A stretch of DNA of 64,000 bases from Patescibacteria group bacterium (lineage in GTDB: Bacteria > Patescibacteriota > Doudnabacteria > UBA920): contig JAMDAY010000001.1 of the NCBI GenBank assembly GCA_023484515.1, forward strand, positions 758-64,757, given 5' to 3'. Position 1 is the stretch's first letter, and every line of letters starts with the position of its first letter. This document shows, piece after piece, positions 9,361-59,475 of this stretch. Under the pieces are notes generated by a model that saw only the letters and a list, made by a program, of their open reading frames with translations, was not told the origin of the DNA and made no database searches. The translations under genes were made by a program, and so were the position numbers.

Positions 9361-9503
9361 AGTTCCTTTTCCCGCCCGGCAGGCTGAAATATTTACTTAA
9401 TTATTTACTTTAATATTTAAGTAAATATTTACTTAAATCAGCCAAAGCCGGGCGGGAGGGGGAGGCTTTAATCTCTCTTGTTGATTTTTAAAGCAGCTTT
9501 GTC

Positions 9504-16261: not shown

Positions 16262-16274
16262 GCATTATTGGACA

Positions 16275-16314
16275 AAACGAACGCCTCAACACGTGTTGAG
16301 GCGTTCGTTTTGGG
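16275..16314 (+). terminator. Rho-independent terminator (perfect 18-bp palindrome aaacgaacgcctcaacac/gtgttgaggcgttcgttt)
   Basis: A perfect inverted repeat followed by a T-rich stretch, immediately after the cupin gene stop. Confidence 0.7.
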
Positions 16315-21548: not shown

Positions 21549-21629
21549 ATATGTATTATAGCATTTTTAAGCGTAAAATTCAACGGCTCAACGCGTTGAG
21601 CCGTTAAAAACAAGGGTTTTTTTGATACG

Positions 21630-33165: not shown

Positions 33166-33459
33166 ATGGCCAGGCCTCGGCTTTGTTTTTGTCCGGAGAT
33201 AAAATTTAATCCGCAGATAACCTATTTCAAGCCGCAGGGAATTCCTGTGGCGGTTTTGAAGATAATGGATTTGAGCGTGGAGGAGCTGGAAGCCATGCGG
33301 CTTAAGAATATGGAAGGCTTGGATCAGGAGAAATGCGCAAAAAAGATGCATACGTCCCAAAGCACGTTCCAGCGCATATTGTCATCCGCCTATAAGAAAG
33401 TTACCCAGGCGCTGGTGGAAGGGAAGGCGATAGAAATAGTCCACCATGACACAGATTGA
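33166..33459 (+). CDS. DUF134/UPF0251 predicted DNA-binding protein (sigma-70 region-4-like HTH)
   Basis: LSVEELEAMRLKNMEGLDQEKCAKKMHTSQSTFQRILSSAYKKV matches the DUF134 HTH. Genes of this family commonly precede metal ABC transporters. Confidence 0.7.
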   Translation: MARPRLCFCPEIKFNPQITYFKPQGIPVAVLKIMDLSVEELEAMRLKNMEGLDQEKCAKKMHTSQSTFQRILSSAYKKVTQALVEGKAIEIVHHDTD

Positions 33460-33525
33460 AAGATTGAAAATTTTCAGGCTTGCCAATCTTTCAATCTTTA
33501 AATCTTTAAATTTTTAAATTTTTTT

Positions 33526-34996: not shown

Positions 34997-35124
34997 AATA
35001 GTTATGGGGGTTAGTGTCCAGGATTTATGGAAATTAAACAAATATCAACGATATCAACGGGCACCATTGCGCTGCGCAATGGTGCCCGTTGATTGGATTG
35101 TTTGAATTGTATGACTGCTTGGTG

Positions 35125-37662: not shown

Positions 37663-37816
37663 AATATACAACAGATATAGCATAGAAATACGGTTGTATT
37701 ACAACCGTATTTTTATATATTTCTATTGTATTTCATGCTTTATTTTGCCTTTTCCGGCCTATTGATCTTTGCAAGATAAGTTGAGCGAATTATGCCTGAT
37801 TGATTGGAAAAATTGT

Positions 37817-46181: not shown

Positions 46182-46371
46182 AATGGAATTTTATCATAAA
46201 TAATTGCTGTTGTTAATGATGACGGTTTTTCGGCAATGCTATTAATATTGTCAGAAAATCTGTTGAAAAAACCGTTCCGGGATTAACCCCGGAACGGTTT
46301 TGTATGTCTAATTCTATTATGAGTATTAATGATTTTCGATTTTCCCGGCCGGGAAAATCGCTAGCCGCCAT

Positions 46372-47995: not shown

Positions 47996-48053
47996 ACTCC
48001 AATCCGGCAATTTGTAATGTAATTTGATACTTGTAATTTGGAACTTTTTAGTT

Positions 48054-49274
48054 ATGCCTTACATCAGCGAACTGCTAAATAACCAGATTAACGACAGTTC
48101 AGACGCAAGCGCAGGCAAGTTAGTGGATATTTTAATTAAACCCGAAAACGGGACATTCAGTCCCCTGGAGTTTTTAGTCATCAAAACGGCAAAAGGGGAA
48201 ATTAAATACGTGCCTTATGAAGCCGTGGCTAATTTTACGAGCAGCCGCATTTCTTTAAAGAACTTGTTTAATAGCGTGGCCAAGGACCAGCTGCCTCCCG
48301 AGCAGTTTATTTATTTAAAGCGCGACGTCTTAGACCAGCAGATAGTGGACGTGGCCGGAACCCGCATAGTCAGGGTGGACGACCTTAGGATTGGCAACTT
48401 TGAAAACCGCATGTGCGTATTGGCCATAGACTCCAGTTTTCCCGGACTGTTGCGGCGCCTGGGGTTGTCCGGCGACATTTGGGGAAAATTTTTCAAGGTA
48501 CAGCTTATTGACTGGCGCCAGGCCCAGCTATTGGGCGACAAGGGGGCTTTGCGGCTAAATACCGCAGCCGGACAATTGGGCAAGCTGCATCCGGCTGACC
48601 TGGCTAACATTGTGGAAGAGATGGATATAAAACACGGCAGCACCTTGTTGGCGTCTCTGGATGCCAAGAGGGCGGCCAAGGTGCTGGAAGAAGTGGACAC
48701 CAACTGGCAAAATATTTTGGTAAAGCATTTGGGGCCGGAAAAAGCCAGCAAGATTTTGGCGCATATGTCAGTGGACGAAGTCGTAGACCTGGTTAAGACT
48801 TTTTCTTCCCAGGAAGAAGCCAGGGCTTTCCTTTCCCAAGTTGGCGGCGGCCGCGCCCGGCACATTGAACGTTTAACCTCTTATCCCGACAACACTGCGG
48901 GAGGCTTGATGACTACGGAGTTCGTGGCCGTGCGGCCGGAATGGACGGTGGCACAGGTTAGGGAGGAAATTAAAAAGCTGTCGCCAAGCTTAAGGTCCAT
49001 AGGTTTCGTTTACGTAACGGCCGATGACGGTAAGTTTTTAGGGCTGGCTTCCATGCGCCGGCTCCTGGTAGCTGACGCCGCGGCTGACATGAAAAGTTTG
49101 GCTAAATCGTTCGGACCGAATTTGACGCTGCGCCCGCGGGACAAGATGAGGAAAATCATTAAGCTAATGACCAAGTATAATTTATACAGTTCAGTGGTTT
49201 TAGATGAACAAAAAAGGCTTTTAGGCGTGGTAACCATTGATGACGTCATGCGGCAGTTGTTCCCCAGCGCGTAA
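48054..49274 (+). CDS. Soluble regulatory protein: PRC-barrel-like N-terminus, MgtE-N domain and tandem CBS domains (no membrane domain)
   Basis: MgtE-N-like helical region (…ANIVEEMDIKHGSTLLASLD…). Two CBS domains (…LMTTEFVAVRPEWTVAQVREEI… and …YSSVVLDEQKRLLGVVTIDDVMRQL). An alternative start lies at 48024. Confidence 0.65.
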   Translation: MPYISELLNNQINDSSDASAGKLVDILIKPENGTFSPLEFLVIKTAKGEIKYVPYEAVANFTSSRISLKNLFNSVAKDQLPPEQFIYLKRDVLDQQIVDVAGTRIVRVDDLRIGNFENRMCVLAIDSSFPGLLRRLGLSGDIWGKFFKVQLIDWRQAQLLGDKGALRLNTAAGQLGKLHPADLANIVEEMDIKHGSTLLASLDAKRAAKVLEEVDTNWQNILVKHLGPEKASKILAHMSVDEVVDLVKTFSSQEEARAFLSQVGGGRARHIERLTSYPDNTAGGLMTTEFVAVRPEWTVAQVREEIKKLSPSLRSIGFVYVTADDGKFLGLASMRRLLVADAAADMKSLAKSFGPNLTLRPRDKMRKIIKLMTKYNLYSSVVLDEQKRLLGVVTIDDVMRQLFPSA

Positions 49275-49334
49275 TATTAATCGCAGTTATGCATATGGAG
49301 CGGATAAACTGGCAAGCAAATAAGCTAATTAGTT

Positions 49335-49421
49335 TGCTATTGATCTCCGCAAAATCAGTTGAACAAATTTGGGCTTACTGATAACAAAAATTATTCAAGA
49401 TAATATGCGGGCCTTAATAGT
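49335..49421 (+). repeat. 85-bp dispersed repeat, copy 2 (see 10070-10156)
   Basis: Direct sequence identity with 10070-10156. Confidence 0.8.
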
Positions 49422-49635
49422 CCTTGGCGTGCCTTAATGGTTTTTATCAGAGACAATCTTTCTTTAGTTTAGGCTGGTGATAATTTTAATTGGATAATTT
49501 AAAAATCATTTATTTCAGATGGGGACCATTCACCGTAATCAACCGCTTATCTATACCAATCATTCCCATAAATAACAAGATTCCCAACACCTATTTGTAT
49601 ATTTGTTAAGATTTGTATATTTGCGGCTACTACAC

Positions 49636-50889
49636 ATGACCAAGTTTTGGAAAAATTACAAAACCCGCTTCCTGATTTTTTTTGCCGTTGTCGGTCCTGG
49701 CCTAATTACCGCGGTAGCGGACAATGATGCCGGCGGGGTAGCCACGTATACGGTGGCGGCGTCGCTTTACGGCATGGCTTCCCAGTATTTTGTAATTATC
49801 ACTACGCTGTTGCTAGCCGTTACCCAGGAAATTGGAGCGCGCATTGCCATTGTCACCGGCAAAGGTTTGGGAGATTTAATCCGCGAACAATACGGCGCCA
49901 GGATGGCTGTGGCCATTTTTCTAATATATTTTGTAGTCAATCAGGGCGTGGTACTTCAGAACGTTTCCGGGCTTAAAGCGGCCATCCAATTGTTCGGCTT
50001 GCCATGGCAAGCCACTTTGGTACTGGCTTGCCTGATATTGGTGACTTTGGTGGTTGCGCTAAGCTACCGCAGCCTGCAGCGTATTTTTCTATTTACCATC
50101 CTGTTTTACGCCACCTACGTTTTTTCCGCGGTTTTGGCGCATCCGAACTGGGGCGATGCCTTGCGCGAAAGCTTGGTTTTTCCCCGACATGTCCAAATAA
50201 GCAATCCCGGTTACTGGTTTGCCTTAATAGCGGTATTAGGCACTACGGTCACTGCCTGGGGGCAATTTTTCGTCAACAGTTACGTGGCGGACAAAGGTTT
50301 GCGCCTACAGCAGCTTAAGGAAGAACGCGCCGAAGTCTATATGGGAGCATTCCTAACCAACTTTTTTTCCTGGATGATAGCCGTAGCCGTCACTTACACG
50401 CTGTTTGTCCACCATATCACGGTCACTAACGGCCTGACCGCGGCTATGGCCATAAGGCCTTTGGCCGGCGCTTTGTCATATACCCTGTTTGCTGTGGGGC
50501 TTTTGGCCGCCTCTTTCCTGGGCCTGACCATAGTGCCGCTGGCCACGGCATACGTGTTCACGGAATTTTTCGGCTACGAGCGCACCTTAAATGCCAATTT
50601 TACCAAAGGCCGCACTTTTTACGTATTTTTTATTTTACAGATTGCCTTTGGCTTAGTGGTTACGCTTTTTCCCAAAGTCAACCTGTTCGGGATAACGCTT
50701 TACGCCGATTACCTAAACGGGGCCATGCTCCCCGTAATTTTTTATTTCTTAATTAGATTTTCCGAAAATAAAGCTATTATGGGGGAGAAACACGTCTCCC
50801 GCGGCTTTTCCAAATATTTCCTCCGCGCTTCCGCCCTCGCCGTCACCCTGGCCGTAATTATTTCATTCGTGGGGAAAGTAGTCCGTTAA
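49636..50889 (+). CDS. mntH: NRAMP-family divalent metal transporter (MntH-like)
   Basis: GPGLITAVADNDAGG (the Nramp D-P-G-N region equivalent), 11 TM helices, 418 aa. Confidence 0.75.
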   Translation: MTKFWKNYKTRFLIFFAVVGPGLITAVADNDAGGVATYTVAASLYGMASQYFVIITTLLLAVTQEIGARIAIVTGKGLGDLIREQYGARMAVAIFLIYFVVNQGVVLQNVSGLKAAIQLFGLPWQATLVLACLILVTLVVALSYRSLQRIFLFTILFYATYVFSAVLAHPNWGDALRESLVFPRHVQISNPGYWFALIAVLGTTVTAWGQFFVNSYVADKGLRLQQLKEERAEVYMGAFLTNFFSWMIAVAVTYTLFVHHITVTNGLTAAMAIRPLAGALSYTLFAVGLLAASFLGLTIVPLATAYVFTEFFGYERTLNANFTKGRTFYVFFILQIAFGLVVTLFPKVNLFGITLYADYLNGAMLPVIFYFLIRFSENKAIMGEKHVSRGFSKYFLRASALAVTLAVIISFVGKVVR

Positions 50890-50898
50890 CAATATTTT

Positions 50899-51615
50899 AT
50901 GCTTAACGAGATAGAAAATATTTTAAAAAATATTCCTCCCGCTGACCGTGGATTGAACCGTGAGGTGGAAGGAAATTTCAGCCAGCTTTTCGATGGCCAT
51001 AAGGACAGTCTGGTTAGTTCGGCCATTTCAGCGGAAAAACGGGCATTGCATTGGGATGACGAAAACAGGAATCCGAAAATGCATGTAGGGTGCAGTATTT
51101 TAACTTTAGGCAAAAAAGCAGACTTGTCCAAACCCGATATTTACACGGGAGCGAATTCTAAACCGGAGCCCGGAGATATGGTTGCTTACCCCAACAGAAA
51201 ATGTGCGGAAATGAATGCCTTGGAAAATGCATTCGGGGAGGAATACGAAGGAAAAATAAAGCCCGAACCTTTTGAAGAAATGGAAAAAGAAGACGTGGGT
51301 GTTGTGGCTGCCATTGTTACGGTTTCTCCTTCAGAAAATACCGGCGAAACTGACACCATTAACCATAAAATAGTCTATTCATGCAAACAGTGCGTGTCCA
51401 GCTATAAAGTGTTAATGGAAAAAGGCATTTTGACTCCGAAAACCATAGTATATAATGCGCGAACAAAAGATGGAACAGTGGTGGCGGGAGAACCTGTGGA
51501 GTTGGGTATTTTGCTGGAAAAAAACAGCAAGGACGAAGAAGCAAAAAATGCAAAAACAATTGAAGATTTGTTTCAAACAATAAGTAAAATTAAAGCCTCT
51601 TTTTACAGGCAGTAG
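50899..51615 (+). CDS. Cytidine/deoxycytidylate-deaminase-fold protein (CAE … CxxC zinc motifs), function unknown
   Basis: KCAEMNAL (the C/H-A-E helix) and YSCKQCVSS (the PCxxC-like motif). The spacing is longer than in canonical CDA. Confidence 0.45.
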   Translation: MLNEIENILKNIPPADRGLNREVEGNFSQLFDGHKDSLVSSAISAEKRALHWDDENRNPKMHVGCSILTLGKKADLSKPDIYTGANSKPEPGDMVAYPNRKCAEMNALENAFGEEYEGKIKPEPFEEMEKEDVGVVAAIVTVSPSENTGETDTINHKIVYSCKQCVSSYKVLMEKGILTPKTIVYNARTKDGTVVAGEPVELGILLEKNSKDEEAKNAKTIEDLFQTISKIKASFYRQ

Positions 51616-51653
51616 CCAATATTTACAAGGATATAGGGGAACAGGTAAAAAAA

Positions 51654-51956
51654 GTGCAAAGTAGGCATGGTTCAAATGGTTCGAAAATAGAGAGTTTAAT
51701 ATCCGAAAAGTTAAAAGATTTGCAGAGGGAAAAGGTGGAAGGGGCTTGGGAGGGATTTGAACCCTACTTAAAAACTATTAGTAATGCTGTTAAGTCGGCG
51801 GTAGAAGAAGGGGTGTCCAAACGGAAAGTGATTGACAGTTTGGGACTAAACGACATTGGCTTAGAACAAGGAACAGTCGGGTTAAGTAAGGCGGAGTTGG
51901 ATTTGATTATTGAGGAATTAGGGAAATCTTGGATAAGAGAATCCGCTAAATCTTGA
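51654..51956 (+). CDS. Small acidic hypothetical protein (100 aa)
   Basis: ORF directly downstream of the deaminase-like gene. Its stop codon is embedded in the 40-bp palindrome. Confidence 0.45.
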   Translation: MQSRHGSNGSKIESLISEKLKDLQREKVEGAWEGFEPYLKTISNAVKSAVEEGVSKRKVIDSLGLNDIGLEQGTVGLSKAELDLIIEELGKSWIRESAKS

Positions 51957-51994
51957 ACCTTCTATAAACAATCATGATTGTTTATAGAAGGTTC
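51955..51994. repeat. Perfect 40-bp palindrome GAACCTTCTATAAACAATCA/TGATTGTTTATAGAAGGTTC
   Basis: The two 20-bp arms are exact reverse complements with no loop. It lies between convergent genes and has no U-tract. Confidence 0.85.
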
Positions 51995-52212
51995 AAGACC
52001 GGCAGTAAAAACAGTGCGGGATAACGTCGCCTCTAATTTAAATTCATGTGTTTTAGCTATCAGTTTTTAATCTTCGCCTCGCTTAAATTGAGAAGCGTCT
52101 GCTGTCGAAAACTTTTTTTAAATAGGTTATTGTAGCAATTTTATAACATATGTTATAAAATTGCTACAAATTTTTAATCTATAAATGTGAATTTTTTGGT
52201 AAGGATATTTAA

Positions 52213-52872
52213 TTATAATTTAAAAAATTTTTTAAGCTTTTTTTCGTCGTCTGTATCCAACCTGTTTATTTCCATTACAGTAACAAAGCGTCCGATATGA
52301 AAATGATTCGCCGTAAATTCTATTTGTTCTGCCGGGTTATAGGAGTATATCCATAAAGTTTTCTGGAGAGGATAAAATCCCATCTGCTTGATTTTCCGCC
52401 TAAAGTAATCTGCATAAAGGCGATACTCTTTGGTGGGAATGTCGGCAGCCACCAGCCACCATCTGCCGTTCCATTTTTTCTGCATAGGAATCTTTAACGA
52501 TTGAAAACTGATTTTTTCCAAATTTTTCCTTCCTTTTCCGGTTAATAAGATTTTAAGACTGGTTTGTTCCGGCTTAATGGTTATCTGCCCGGTTTTTTTC
52601 AGGTAGTAAAAAACTTGGGTTATTTTTTTCTGCTTTTCCTTATGATTCCAGCGCTGTTTGTTGTTTGTAAACTTTCCCAATTTGTCCAAAGCGGTAAGAA
52701 GATTGGGGGCCGCAACGGCAATCGTTGCCACGCTTAAAGTACCAATAATCGCCAGTGCGATTTGACCCGCCGACTTCAAATGTTCAATATCTTTATTGGT
52801 CAAGTTTATTTTAACCAGCCTATTGTCTGGGGTGGCGTTTTTGATGTCTTTGGCCAGTTTTTCGTATCGCAT
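52213..52872 (-). CDS. Hypothetical membrane-anchored protein with a PaaX/Cas2-like C-terminal domain
   Basis: TM helix ALAIIGTLSVATIAVAAP. C-terminal WNGRWWLVAADIPTKEYRLYADYFRRKIKQMGFYPLQKTLWIY resembles the PaaX C-terminal / VapD-like fold. Confidence 0.45.
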   Translation of the reverse strand: MRYEKLAKDIKNATPDNRLVKINLTNKDIEHLKSAGQIALAIIGTLSVATIAVAAPNLLTALDKLGKFTNNKQRWNHKEKQKKITQVFYYLKKTGQITIKPEQTSLKILLTGKGRKNLEKISFQSLKIPMQKKWNGRWWLVAADIPTKEYRLYADYFRRKIKQMGFYPLQKTLWIYSYNPAEQIEFTANHFHIGRFVTVMEINRLDTDDEKKLKKFFKL

Positions 52873-52962: not shown

Positions 52963-53802
52963 TTATTTCCACACCGCAATCGCCACTTTTTGGTTTTGGT
53001 CCACGGTTTGCTTGGACTGGTCCCAGTCGGCCGCAGCGCTTTTTATGGTATTAAAAGAATATAAATAACTTTGTCCACGTTTGGTGCCGGGGTCGTTAGT
53101 AATAAAATAACCGCCGTTAAAGCCTCTTATTACCAGCATGTGATGTATGGGTCCTGGTTGTTTGTAATAAGGGTTGCCAAGTTTTTGTCCGTTTTCGGAA
53201 ATTATTACCAGATGATTTTGTGCCAGTTCGTTTTTTAAATCCGTTTCCGAAAAATTATTAAGCAGTTTGGCCTTTAGGCCGTAAACCCGTTCTATCATTT
53301 TGGCGGTTTCCGTCGCCGTGGTATCCAAATAATGTCCATAATTATCCTTTTCCCATTTGGTCAAATCGGCAATTTGGCTTTCTACAAACTGCGGATCAAG
53401 CTGCGGTTTTTTATTGCCAGAGAAATACTCTTCCGCCATTATGGCGGAGGCTTCTTCACACGACTCGTTATGCAGTTCGTCCCAGTTTCCGGTCGGCGCC
53501 TGGACGGTAAAAGGCACTTGTAAATTTAAATAAACCGGAGCAGAAGTATTGCTATTGGCCTGGCTAGAGGTTTGATTGTCATTTTCCGCCGACTCAGACG
53601 GCAAAAGATTGTTGTCTCGCGGTTGGCGGGCAAAGCTTGGAATATCGGCAGTGTCATCCACGCGGTAGTGCCGGTATATCCAATACACTCCCGATTCCGC
53701 AATTAGCGCAAAAGCCAGTAAATAAATTGCCAGTCTTTTAAAGTTCATAAAATTGCCGGGAAGATCATATTCGGCCTGGCCAAAGGAGTCCTTTGAAAAC
53801 AT
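52963..53802 (-). CDS. Secreted peptidase C39-like (YvpB-like) domain protein
   Basis: TM/signal, then NESCEEASAIMAEEYF (Cys nucleophile region) and HHMLVIRGF (His) in the arrangement of Peptidase_C39_2. Confidence 0.5.
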   Translation of the reverse strand: MFSKDSFGQAEYDLPGNFMNFKRLAIYLLAFALIAESGVYWIYRHYRVDDTADIPSFARQPRDNNLLPSESAENDNQTSSQANSNTSAPVYLNLQVPFTVQAPTGNWDELHNESCEEASAIMAEEYFSGNKKPQLDPQFVESQIADLTKWEKDNYGHYLDTTATETAKMIERVYGLKAKLLNNFSETDLKNELAQNHLVIISENGQKLGNPYYKQPGPIHHMLVIRGFNGGYFITNDPGTKRGQSYLYSFNTIKSAAADWDQSKQTVDQNQKVAIAVWK

Positions 53803-53908
53803 GAGGGCCGCCCTCTGGGATAGCCGGGCTTAAGATTATTATGCAACAAACTATCATCGCCAATCTTAAGGTAGGTGATCCCAGAGGGCGGCCCTCATGT
53901 TTTCCTGT

Positions 53909-59284: not shown

Positions 59285-59475
59285 ATAGGCATAATTAATC
59301 CACGGATAAGTGTAAAAGCAATTGAAATATTGAAAGATTGAAAAATTGAAAATATTAAATAATTTTTTAATCTTGTAATTTTTAATCTTTCAATTAACAA
59401 ACTGCTACTTATTTCGTGCAGACCCCGATGGGGCGGCTGAAAATTTGTCCCGCATCATCAGGCAAGAAAGGCAGT

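What the first reader, a model, noticed from the sequence alone, without database searches (positions are those of the whole stretch)
50899..51994. Deaminase-fold protein plus small acidic ORF ending in a perfect 40-bp palindrome
The 238-aa ORF carries the two zinc-ligand motifs of the cytidine-deaminase fold (CAE in KCAEMNAL, and CxxC in SCKQCVSS) with an unusually long insert between them. It does not resemble housekeeping CDA or dCMP deaminase in length or context. It is followed by a 100-aa acidic ORF. Deaminase-superfamily toxins are typically followed by small immunity proteins. The pair is terminated by an exact 40-bp palindrome (51955-51994) with no U-tract. A perfect palindrome of that length is unusual and could be a dimeric-regulator operator, a recombination site, or a bidirectional structured terminator.
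Basis: inference. Interest (0 to 1): 0.55.

Follow-up and report, generated by a model that had tools for sequence, protein, structure and literature searches.

The report
Split cytidine-deaminase-like gene with terminator palindrome
The two reading frames are one gene for an unusual zinc deaminase with a helical tail, broken here by a one-base deletion, and the palindrome after it is one of this genome's many hairpins at gene ends, so this is not a toxin-immunity pair.

Summary
The sequence features are real. ORF1 (50899-51615) carries the CAE and CxxC motifs. ORF2 (51654-51956) follows it. The palindrome is perfect and is 48 bp long (51951-51998), not 40.

The deaminase fold is confirmed. 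A family profile hits homotetrameric cytidine deaminases in the PDB (2d30, E 5e-9). A confident AlphaFold model (pLDDT 92) has 2d30 as its top Foldseek match, with blasticidin-S deaminase second.

The toxin plus immunity reading fails. Every full-length relative (308-364 aa) is a single protein covering ORF1, a linker and ORF2. The two frames join exactly at a T5 run (51600-51604); one more T restores "ASFLQAV", matching a homolog's "RAFLQAV". Two independent read sets show the same break, which falls inside a predicted long helix. A related genome carries an independent CAA-to-TAA nonsense mutation.

The family is rare (75 representatives among 1.84 billion proteins) and appears confined to Patescibacteria. 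It usually sits directly downstream of an MsbA-like ABC exporter, which is missing here. Cytidine-binding residues are replaced, so the substrate is unknown.

The palindrome is one of nine perfect inverted repeats in the window. All nine lie just 3' of genes, and related loci carry unrelated hairpins at the same position. This fits a terminator or 3'-end hairpin. Interest is modest.

The parts
50899..51956 (+). One gene for a ~352-aa two-domain protein: a cytidine-deaminase-fold domain plus a helical tail. In this genome a frameshift interrupts it.
   Evidence: The frameshift-corrected translation aligns end to end with 337-364-aa single-chain homologs. The AF2 model of the fused sequence has pLDDT 92 and pTM 0.88.
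50899..51615 (+). ORF1, 238 aa. It holds the complete catalytic domain (residues ~27-210) plus the first ~20 residues of the long helix, then 3 out-of-frame codons and TAG.
   Evidence: A42, G64, N86, C102, E104, C162 and C165 are invariant in 40 family members.
51202..51210 (+). Codons for C102-A103-E104, the first zinc ligand and the catalytic glutamate.
   Evidence: Sequence. These residues align with C53-A54-E55 of B. subtilis CDA.
51382..51393 (+). Codons for C162-K-Q-C165, the second and third zinc ligands.
   Evidence: Sequence. These residues align with the PCGAC motif of CDA and are invariant.
51600..51604 (+). T5 run, the frameshift site. A sixth T would fuse ORF1 with the tail frame.
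   Evidence: The tail frame is open from 51594. With T6 the junction reads 'KASF|LQAV', matching homolog P0010 'RAFLQAV'. The sequence is identical in two independent Logan assemblies.
51594..51956 (+). Tail reading frame, at -1 relative to ORF1. The called ORF2 is 51654-51956, with a GTG start and a weak AGG Shine-Dalgarno 8 nt upstream.
   Evidence: The tail is no more diverged than the tails of intact homologs: tail/head identity ratio 0.55 against 0.56.
51951..51998 (.). Perfect 48-bp zero-spacer palindrome overlapping the stop codon. As RNA it is predicted to form a 22-bp stem with a 4-nt loop, dG -33 kcal/mol.
   Evidence: It belongs to a class of 9 perfect inverted repeats that all lie within 120 nt 3' of genes. 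Unrelated hairpins occupy the same position in L001, L003, L012 and L019.
52130..52169 (.). Second perfect palindrome, 40 bp, 44 nt downstream of the convergent PaaX_M-like gene. A T-run follows it on the + strand.
   Evidence: L013 holds an 85% identical but imperfect copy next to its PaaX_M-like gene.
49603..50889 (+). Nramp transporter gene, which ends 9 nt before ORF1. It is the upstream member of the same-strand gene string. In relatives an MsbA-like ABC exporter gene sits between Nramp and the deaminase-like gene.

Best explanation
Positions 50899-51956 are a single gene for a ~352-aa protein.

Its N-terminal ~210 residues form a zinc-dependent hydrolytic deaminase domain of the homotetrameric cytidine-deaminase / blasticidin-S-deaminase class. 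Cys102, Cys162 and Cys165 would hold the zinc. Glu104 would shuttle the proton to deaminate a 4-aminopyrimidine-type substrate (inferred from homology).

Its C-terminal ~140 residues form a long antiparallel helical hairpin plus a small helical bundle. This probably mediates assembly or regulation (inferred).

In this genome a 1-nt deletion in a T run (T6 to T5, 51600-51604) shifts the frame in the middle of the first long helix. The cell can then make only a 238-aa protein with an intact catalytic domain, plus at most a separately initiated 100-aa tail fragment. The most likely state is a recently disabled or crippled gene, not an evolved two-gene system.

The family appears confined to Patescibacteria (named relatives are Doudnabacteria or Saccharibacteria MAGs). 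It evolves faster than its neighbours and normally follows an MsbA-like ABC exporter, which has been lost here. Residues that bind cytidine in canonical Cdd are replaced (Phe24 to Met, Glu44 to Lys, Arg56 to Met), so the substrate is probably not plain cytidine.

The 48-bp palindrome is the gene's 3'-end RNA hairpin. It would act as a transcription terminator or transcript stabiliser between convergent genes, like the hairpins after eight other genes in the window.
For: Single gene: 8 of 8 close full-length homologs are one chain covering both ORFs, as are more distant ones. The tail frame is open 60 nt upstream of the GTG and is homologous there. The fused model is confident (pLDDT 92), and the break falls inside helix 213-256.

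Break is real: two Logan contigs from different runs are 100% identical over the site.

Deaminase: weak Pfam PF00383 hit, while shorter relatives pass the gathering score. PDB profile hits are cytidine deaminases 2d30 (5e-9) and 1jtk (2e-6). Foldseek gives 2d30 at E 2e-6, prob 1.0, and blasticidin-S deaminase at 5.5e-3. The catalytic residues are invariant in 40 sequences.

Dispensability: L013 carries an independent in-frame TAA in the catalytic domain.

Synteny: ABC exporter, then the gene, then convergent Peptidase_C39_2 and RluB, in L001, L003, L007 and L019. In L006 the contig ends before the downstream genes. In L013 a PaaX_M-like gene lies between, as in the window. The ABC exporter is absent from the window.

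Hairpin: all 9 perfect inverted repeats lie in the 3' zone, which is 10.7% of the window (p about 2e-9). Unrelated hairpins sit at the orthologous position. The literature reports more than 12-fold enrichment of perfect inverted repeats after bacterial gene ends (PMC13155455).
Against: No enzymatic data exist, and the substrate is unknown. ORF1 retains the whole catalytic domain, and ~190-aa relatives lack the tail altogether. The truncated protein could therefore still be active.

The tail frame shows no extra decay. In L021/L022 a tail-like protein is encoded as a separate gene after a distant deaminase-like protein. A two-polypeptide arrangement is therefore not impossible.

The palindrome lacks a U-tract and is AT-rich, so it does not meet the classical intrinsic-terminator definition. 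Why the hairpin loops in this genome are themselves self-complementary is not explained.
Confidence: 0.85

Rival explanations
1. Toxin-immunity pair. ORF1 would be a deaminase toxin and ORF2 its small cognate immunity protein.
For: ORF1 has a deaminase fold. DddA and APOBEC appear among weak structural matches, at E 0.08-1. The gene evolves fast and has been inactivated twice. One distant lineage encodes the tail separately.
Against: ORF2 is the C-terminal domain of the same chain in essentially all relatives. The break falls mid-helix, not at a domain border. There is no secretion or targeting domain, no toxin-deaminase Pfam hit, and no PADLOC hit. The protein is acidic (pI ~5.2), which suits nucleic-acid binding poorly. 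Its closest relatives are metabolic CDA and BSD enzymes. The gene is inherited in a conserved chromosomal slot.
Confidence: 0.03
2. Functional gene fission. After the frameshift, both pieces are still made (ORF2 from its GTG) and either assemble, or the catalytic fragment works alone.
For: ORF1 holds the complete catalytic domain. Tail-less ~190-aa relatives exist. The tail frame is intact and not extra-diverged. A GTG with an AGG 8 nt upstream is available. L021 has a naturally separate tail gene.
Against: 17 residues of the first long helix would be lost and the helical hairpin cut. No other family member is split at this point. An independent nonsense allele in L013 shows the gene can be lost. 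The usual ABC partner is already gone from this locus.
Confidence: 0.25
3. Programmed -1 ribosomal frameshift on U_UUU_UAC would produce the full-length protein.
For: tRNA-Phe can re-pair perfectly one base back within the T5 run, and doing so yields exactly the homologous junction.
Against: This is not an X_XXY_YYZ heptamer. No stable downstream structure is predicted: dG is -14 for 91 nt. No homolog is frameshifted, so the site is not conserved.
Confidence: 0.03
4. The 48-bp palindrome is a DNA-level site, such as an operator for a dimeric regulator (for example the adjacent PaaX_M-like protein) or a recombination site, and not an RNA hairpin.
For: The symmetry is perfect through the centre, which an RNA hairpin does not need. 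A PaaX-like putative regulator is encoded 215 nt away. The neighbouring 40-bp palindrome is conserved in sequence in L013.
Against: It lies at a gene's 3' end and overlaps the stop codon. The nine palindromes in the window share no sequence motif. L013 has the PaaX-like gene without this palindrome. The orthologous positions in genomes lacking the PaaX-like gene carry unrelated hairpins. The arm sequence was not found in the metagenome collection.
Confidence: 0.08

Closest known systems
Homotetrameric cytidine deaminase (Cdd; B. anthracis 2d30, B. subtilis 1jtk; TIGR01354)
   Same: Both have a Cys-Cys-Cys zinc site (CAE ... PCxxC), the catalytic Glu, the conserved Asn corresponding to Asn42, and the same core fold. 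It is the best sequence-profile and structural match.
   Different: The protein is 352 aa against ~135 aa. It has an N-terminal helical extension, two inserts between the zinc motifs, and a ~140-aa helical tail. Phe24, Glu44 and Arg56 are replaced by Met61, Lys88 and Met105 (residue roles are from my own knowledge of B. subtilis CDA). It has no NCBIfam hit and scores below Pfam's gathering score.
Blasticidin-S deaminase (BSD, 1wn6)
   Same: It is the second-best structural match, at E 5.5e-3 and prob 0.97. It has the same Cys3 zinc class. It is a precedent for a CDA-type enzyme acting on a non-cytidine aminopyrimidine.
   Different: No sequence-level hit was found at E <= 1. BSD is a ~130-aa tetramer without a tail. 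No link to antibiotics has been shown here.
Polymorphic-toxin deaminases with immunity proteins (for example DddA-DddI)
   Same: They share the deaminase superfamily fold, and a small ORF lies downstream.
   Different: Structural matches are only weak, at E >= 0.08. There is no delivery domain. The 'immunity' ORF is part of the same protein in relatives.
Rho-independent (intrinsic), bidirectional terminator hairpins between convergent genes
   Same: The position is immediately 3' of the stop codon between convergent genes, and the stem is very stable at dG -33. Orthologous loci carry non-homologous hairpins at the same place.
   Different: There is no U-tract, and the stem is AT-rich. The stem is unusually long and perfect (24-nt arms) with zero spacer, whereas bacterial inverted repeats usually have ~4-nt spacers (PMC13155455).

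Membership tests
Cytidine/deoxycytidylate deaminase superfamily (Pfam PF00383, CDA fold) | [C/H]AE motif with catalytic Glu | tested here: met
   C102-A-E104 is present. C102 and E104 are invariant in 40 family sequences.
Cytidine/deoxycytidylate deaminase superfamily (Pfam PF00383, CDA fold) | PCxxC zinc motif | tested here: met
   The motif is S-C162-K-Q-C165, and both cysteines are invariant. The Pro is replaced by Ser here but is present in many relatives.
Cytidine/deoxycytidylate deaminase superfamily (Pfam PF00383, CDA fold) | Score at or above the Pfam gathering threshold (25 bits) | tested here: not met
   The window protein scores 17.1 bits, E 0.005. Shorter family relatives score 25.4-29.9 bits, so membership rests on transitive homology.
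Cytidine/deoxycytidylate deaminase superfamily (Pfam PF00383, CDA fold) | Three-layer alpha/beta/alpha deaminase fold | tested here: met
   The AF2 domain model has pLDDT 91.6. The Foldseek top hit is 2d30, with E 2e-6, prob 1.00 and TM(target) 0.74.
Homotetrameric cytidine deaminase, EC 3.5.4.5 (TIGR01354) | Equivalog score at or above 113.65 bits | tested here: not met
   The window protein has no hit. Short relatives score 22-28 bits.
Homotetrameric cytidine deaminase, EC 3.5.4.5 (TIGR01354) | Cys3 zinc ligation (Cys in the CAE motif, not His) | tested here: met
   The motif is CAE, not HAE.
Homotetrameric cytidine deaminase, EC 3.5.4.5 (TIGR01354) | Nucleoside-binding residues Phe24, Asn42, Glu44, and Arg56 next to the catalytic Glu (B. 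subtilis numbering) | tested here: not met
   Only the Asn is kept, as N86. The other positions are Met61, Lys88 and Met105, by the profile alignment. The residue roles come from my knowledge of the B. subtilis CDA structures.
Homotetrameric cytidine deaminase, EC 3.5.4.5 (TIGR01354) | Cytidine/deoxycytidine deaminase activity; tetramer | not testable with these tools
   This needs an enzyme assay and measurement of oligomeric state.
Deaminase toxin + immunity (polymorphic toxin / TA) system | Immunity protein encoded as a separate, co-conserved downstream gene | tested here: not met
   The ORF2 region is fused in-frame in all close homologs. Only one distant lineage (L021/L022) has a separate tail gene.
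Deaminase toxin + immunity (polymorphic toxin / TA) system | N-terminal secretion or trafficking domain, or match to a toxin-deaminase family | tested here: not met
   No Pfam, PADLOC or PHROGs matches of that kind were found. The N-terminus is a short helical extension.
Deaminase toxin + immunity (polymorphic toxin / TA) system | Toxicity neutralised by the partner | not testable with these tools
   This needs expression experiments.
Intrinsic (Rho-independent) terminator | Stable stem-loop immediately downstream of a gene | tested here: met
   The hairpin has a 22-bp stem, a 4-nt loop and dG -33.4, and it overlaps the stop codon.
Intrinsic (Rho-independent) terminator | U-tract directly after the stem | tested here: not met
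   The + strand is followed by GACCGGCAGT and the - strand by TTTAGCGGAT. The consensus scan did not call it, whereas it did call the 52130-52169 palindrome.
Intrinsic (Rho-independent) terminator | Transcript 3' ends map to the hairpin | not testable with these tools
   This needs Term-seq or 3'-RACE.

The most novel reading that the evidence does not exclude
In this Patescibacteria clade, the gene slot after the MsbA-like ABC exporter may hold a rapidly diversifying zinc deaminase. Three forms are seen: a 340-aa cytidine-deaminase core plus tail, a 406-420-aa form with CAER/PCxYC motifs, and that longer form with a detached tail gene. On this reading it acts on a non-cytidine substrate, for example a nucleoside-type antibiotic or a host-derived compound, in concert with the exporter. 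The helical tail would be a detachable regulatory partner. The repeated inactivation (frameshift here, nonsense in L013, exporter loss here) would reflect conditional, conflict-driven selection and not simple decay.
Probability: 0.15. Interest if true: 0.6.

Novelty: new variant of a known kind. Interest (0 to 1): 0.3.

Why it matters
The result removes a false toxin-immunity lead. It shows how a frameshifted gene in a metagenome-assembled genome can look like a two-gene system.

It also defines a small, uncharacterised branch of the cytidine-deaminase fold in Patescibacteria. This branch keeps the catalytic zinc site, has lost the residues that recognise cytidine, and has gained a helical tail. 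If its substrate proves unusual, it would add to the known deaminase repertoire and could inform nucleoside salvage or detoxification in these reduced-genome symbionts.

The genome's habit of ending genes with perfect zero-spacer palindromes is a minor curiosity about terminator evolution.

Tried and rejected
- Foldseek with the full-length model returned only generic helical bundles because the tail dominated. Re-modelling the catalytic domain alone solved this.
- PADLOC, PHROGs and the viral structure library gave nothing significant. The best viral structural match was a CMP/dCMP-type deaminase domain protein at E 3.8e-3.
- Rfam found only three tRNAs in the window and nothing near the locus.
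- An exact search for the palindrome arm in metagenome contigs found nothing.
- A broad alignment was too diverse for the genome-contig scan. The narrower alignment found only 4 species genomes.
- A literature search for Patescibacteria cytidine deaminase returned nothing relevant.
- Programmed frameshifting was considered and rejected, because there is no canonical slippery heptamer, no stimulatory structure and no conservation.
- A PaaX-operator reading of the palindrome was considered and rejected on position and lack of conservation.
- The contexts of short ~190-aa relatives were examined for salvage genes and were uninformative.

Full report
**Observation.** ORF1 (50899-51615, 238 aa) and ORF2 (51654-51956, GTG start, 100 aa) are present. 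The motifs KCAEMNAL and SCKQCVSS are present. The palindrome is longer than reported. It has perfect 24-nt arms with no spacer, spans 51951-51998 and overlaps the TGA stop. Chance expectation in 64 kb is about 3e-10. ORF2 is only mildly acidic: pI 5.5, net charge about -2. A second perfect 40-bp palindrome lies at 52130-52169.

**The two ORFs are one gene.**
- A search of 5.8 billion proteins found the window's own 238-aa protein, named as a hypothetical protein of a Patescibacteria MAG. It also found ten relatives at 44-58% identity, of which nine are 337-364 aa long.
- These relatives cover ORF1, a linker and ORF2 in a single chain.
- ORF2's frame is open for 60 nt upstream of its GTG, from 51594. 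It overlaps the end of ORF1's frame across a T5 run (51600-51604).
- Reading the run as T6 gives ...KIKASFLQAVANIYKDIGEQVKKVQSRHG.... This aligns without a gap to the homologs, and the junction 'ASFLQAV' matches 'RAFLQAV' in P0010.
- An AlphaFold2 model of the fused 352-aa sequence is confident throughout (pLDDT 92, pTM 0.88). It places the break inside a long helix, residues 213-256. The split therefore cuts a structural element and not a domain linker.
- Two Logan assemblies from different sequencing runs are 100% identical to the window across the site. The frameshift is therefore not a one-off assembly error. Both contigs stop inside the palindrome.
- The tail is no more diverged from homologs than is normal for this family: tail/head identity ratio 0.55 against 0.56 +/- 0.15. 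The lesion is therefore recent, or the tail is still under selection.

**What the protein is.**
- Pfam gives only a sub-threshold dCMP_cyt_deam_1 hit: 17 bits against a gathering score of 25.
- An exhaustive profile search of 1.84 billion representatives found just 75 relatives at E <= 1e-3. About 15 have the long architecture. The rest are mostly ~190-aa proteins that contain only the catalytic domain.
- Several of the short proteins pass the Pfam threshold, and JGI names two of them 'cytidine deaminase'.
- In a 40-sequence alignment the invariant residues are A42, G64, N86, C102, E104, C162 and C165. These include the Cys3 zinc site and the catalytic Glu.
- The family profile hits homotetrameric cytidine deaminases in the PDB: 2d30 at E 5e-9 and 1jtk at 2e-6.
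- A domain-only model (pLDDT 91.6) has 2d30 as its top Foldseek match (E 2e-6, prob 1.0). Blasticidin-S deaminase is second (5.5e-3). DddA and APOBECs appear only at E >= 0.08.
- It is not a canonical Cdd. It has no NCBIfam cytidine-deaminase hit. By the profile alignment, the positions of B. subtilis Phe24, Glu44 and Arg56 are Met61, Lys88 and Met105. The roles of those residues in nucleoside binding and zinc-site charge balance are from my knowledge of the B. subtilis CDA structures.
- The protein is acidic, has no secretion signal or delivery domain, and matches no defence or phage family.

**Context.**
- In L001, L003-5, L007 and L019/20 the gene follows an MsbA-like ABC exporter on the same strand and faces a convergent Peptidase_C39_2 gene and an RluB-like pseudouridine synthase gene. 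In L006 the gene follows the exporter, but the contig ends before any downstream gene. In L013 a PaaX_M-like gene lies between the gene and Peptidase_C39_2.
- L006 and L013 also have the MgtE_N/CBS-Nramp pair upstream, as in the window.
- The window lacks the ABC gene. It has an extra PaaX_M-like gene at 52213-52872 on the minus strand, as does L013.
- L012 has a different context.
- The gene is the fastest-evolving of the block: 38-50% identity against 62-70% for MgtE_N, Nramp and RluB.
- In L013 the gene is broken independently, by an in-frame TAA where a close homolog has Gln.
- In a sister clade (L021, L024, L025) the same slot holds a 406-420-aa protein with invariant CAER and PCxYC motifs. 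This protein has no Pfam or PDB hit, and its profile-profile link to this family is only weak: hhalign prob 24%, E 8e-4.
- In L021/L022 that protein is followed by a separate 135-aa protein that matches the tail.
- The slot therefore holds a fast-changing deaminase-like gene, and its tail can be fused or separate.

**The palindrome.**
- The window contains nine perfect inverted repeats with arms >= 12 nt and spacer <= 8 nt.
- All nine are intergenic and lie within 120 nt downstream of a gene's 3' end. That zone covers 10.7% of the window, giving p about 2e-9. The nine share no common sequence.
- At the orthologous position after the gene, L001, L003, L012 and L019 carry stable hairpins of unrelated sequence.
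- As RNA the 48-bp palindrome is predicted to fold into a 22-bp stem with a 4-nt loop, dG -33 kcal/mol.
- A large survey reports more than 12-fold enrichment of perfect inverted repeats downstream of bacterial gene ends, with a preference for 4-nt spacers (PMC13155455).
- The element is best read as a 3'-end terminator or stabiliser hairpin between convergent genes, although it lacks a U-tract.
- It was not found elsewhere: the arm has no exact match in the metagenome collection. L013, which has the PaaX-like gene, lacks it. This argues against an operator or a mobile-element end.

**Verdict.**
- The deaminase fold is confirmed.
- The toxin-immunity interpretation is refuted.
- The pair is a single, frameshifted gene of a rare Patescibacteria branch of the cytidine-deaminase fold, with unknown substrate.
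- The palindrome is an extreme example of this genome's ordinary gene-end hairpins.
- The catalytic mechanism (zinc-activated water, Glu104 proton shuttle) is inferred from homology. The roles of the tail and of the ABC neighbour are conjecture.

Noticed in passing
window 9415-9438, 16273-16312, 21582-21605, 35053-35093, 37686-37712, 46337-46360, 51951-51998, 52130-52169: Eight of the nine perfect gene-end inverted repeats have a spacer of 0 or 1 nt, so even the loop bases are self-complementary. In 94 kb of related loci only 1 of 13 is like this (Fisher p 2e-4). Six fully palindromic 4-nt loops out of nine has a chance probability of about 5e-6. This suggests a DNA-level process, such as template switching, that perfects these hairpins in this genome. 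It remains unexplained.
   Followed up: partly
L013 5989-7077: The orthologous deaminase-like gene in a related MAG (CAYIHW010000012) is broken by an in-frame TAA where a close homolog has Gln. The catalytic domain is cut before the CxxC motif. A near-identical fragment (P0050) hints that a second strain carries the same break.
   Followed up: yes
L021 2752-4408; L024 4001-5263; L025 4001-5251: In a sister clade the same slot after the ABC exporter holds a 406-420-aa protein with invariant CAER and PCxYC motifs. It has no Pfam or PDB match. In L021/L022 a separate 135-aa tail-like gene follows it. It may be a very divergent two-domain deaminase.
   Followed up: partly
window 53795-53904: An inverted repeat with 43-nt arms (88% complementary, 24-nt spacer) fills the gap between the RluB-like stop and the Peptidase_C39_2 start. 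The 3' arm contains the C39_2 ATG, so the start codon would be buried in a long hairpin. Each arm also holds a GAGGGCGGCCCTC mini-hairpin. In L001 and L013 the two genes abut and the element is absent.
   Followed up: partly
window 52213-52872 (-) and 52130-52169: A PaaX_M (Cas2-like) domain protein with a predicted N-terminal membrane helix is 77% identical to its L013 counterpart, while flanking genes are 38-70% identical. The 40-bp palindrome beside it is 85% conserved in L013 but imperfect there. Other relatives lack this gene.
   Followed up: partly
window 48024-50889; L006 1788-4289; L013 1717-4218; L024 1-2053: A soluble MgtE_N + CBS (+PRC-barrel) protein lacking the MgtE membrane domain is paired with an Nramp-family transporter in several genomes. 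This may be a split regulator-transporter unit for divalent cations.
   Followed up: no
window 50889-50899: The MsbA-like ABC exporter gene that precedes the deaminase-like gene in nine related loci is absent here. Nramp's stop is only 9 nt from ORF1's start. No ortholog exists elsewhere in the window; only generic ABC ATPase hits at 29-33% identity were found.
   Followed up: yes
window 33453-33505 and 59329-59394: Inverted repeats built from a repeated GATTGAAA-type motif lie in two intergenic regions, one of them between divergent genes. They may be a shared regulatory motif.
   Followed up: no
L008 and L009 (window 49391/49630-51980): Both independent Logan contigs end at 51980, six bases past the palindrome centre. 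This is probably the assembler breaking at a perfect palindrome longer than its k-mer.
   Followed up: no
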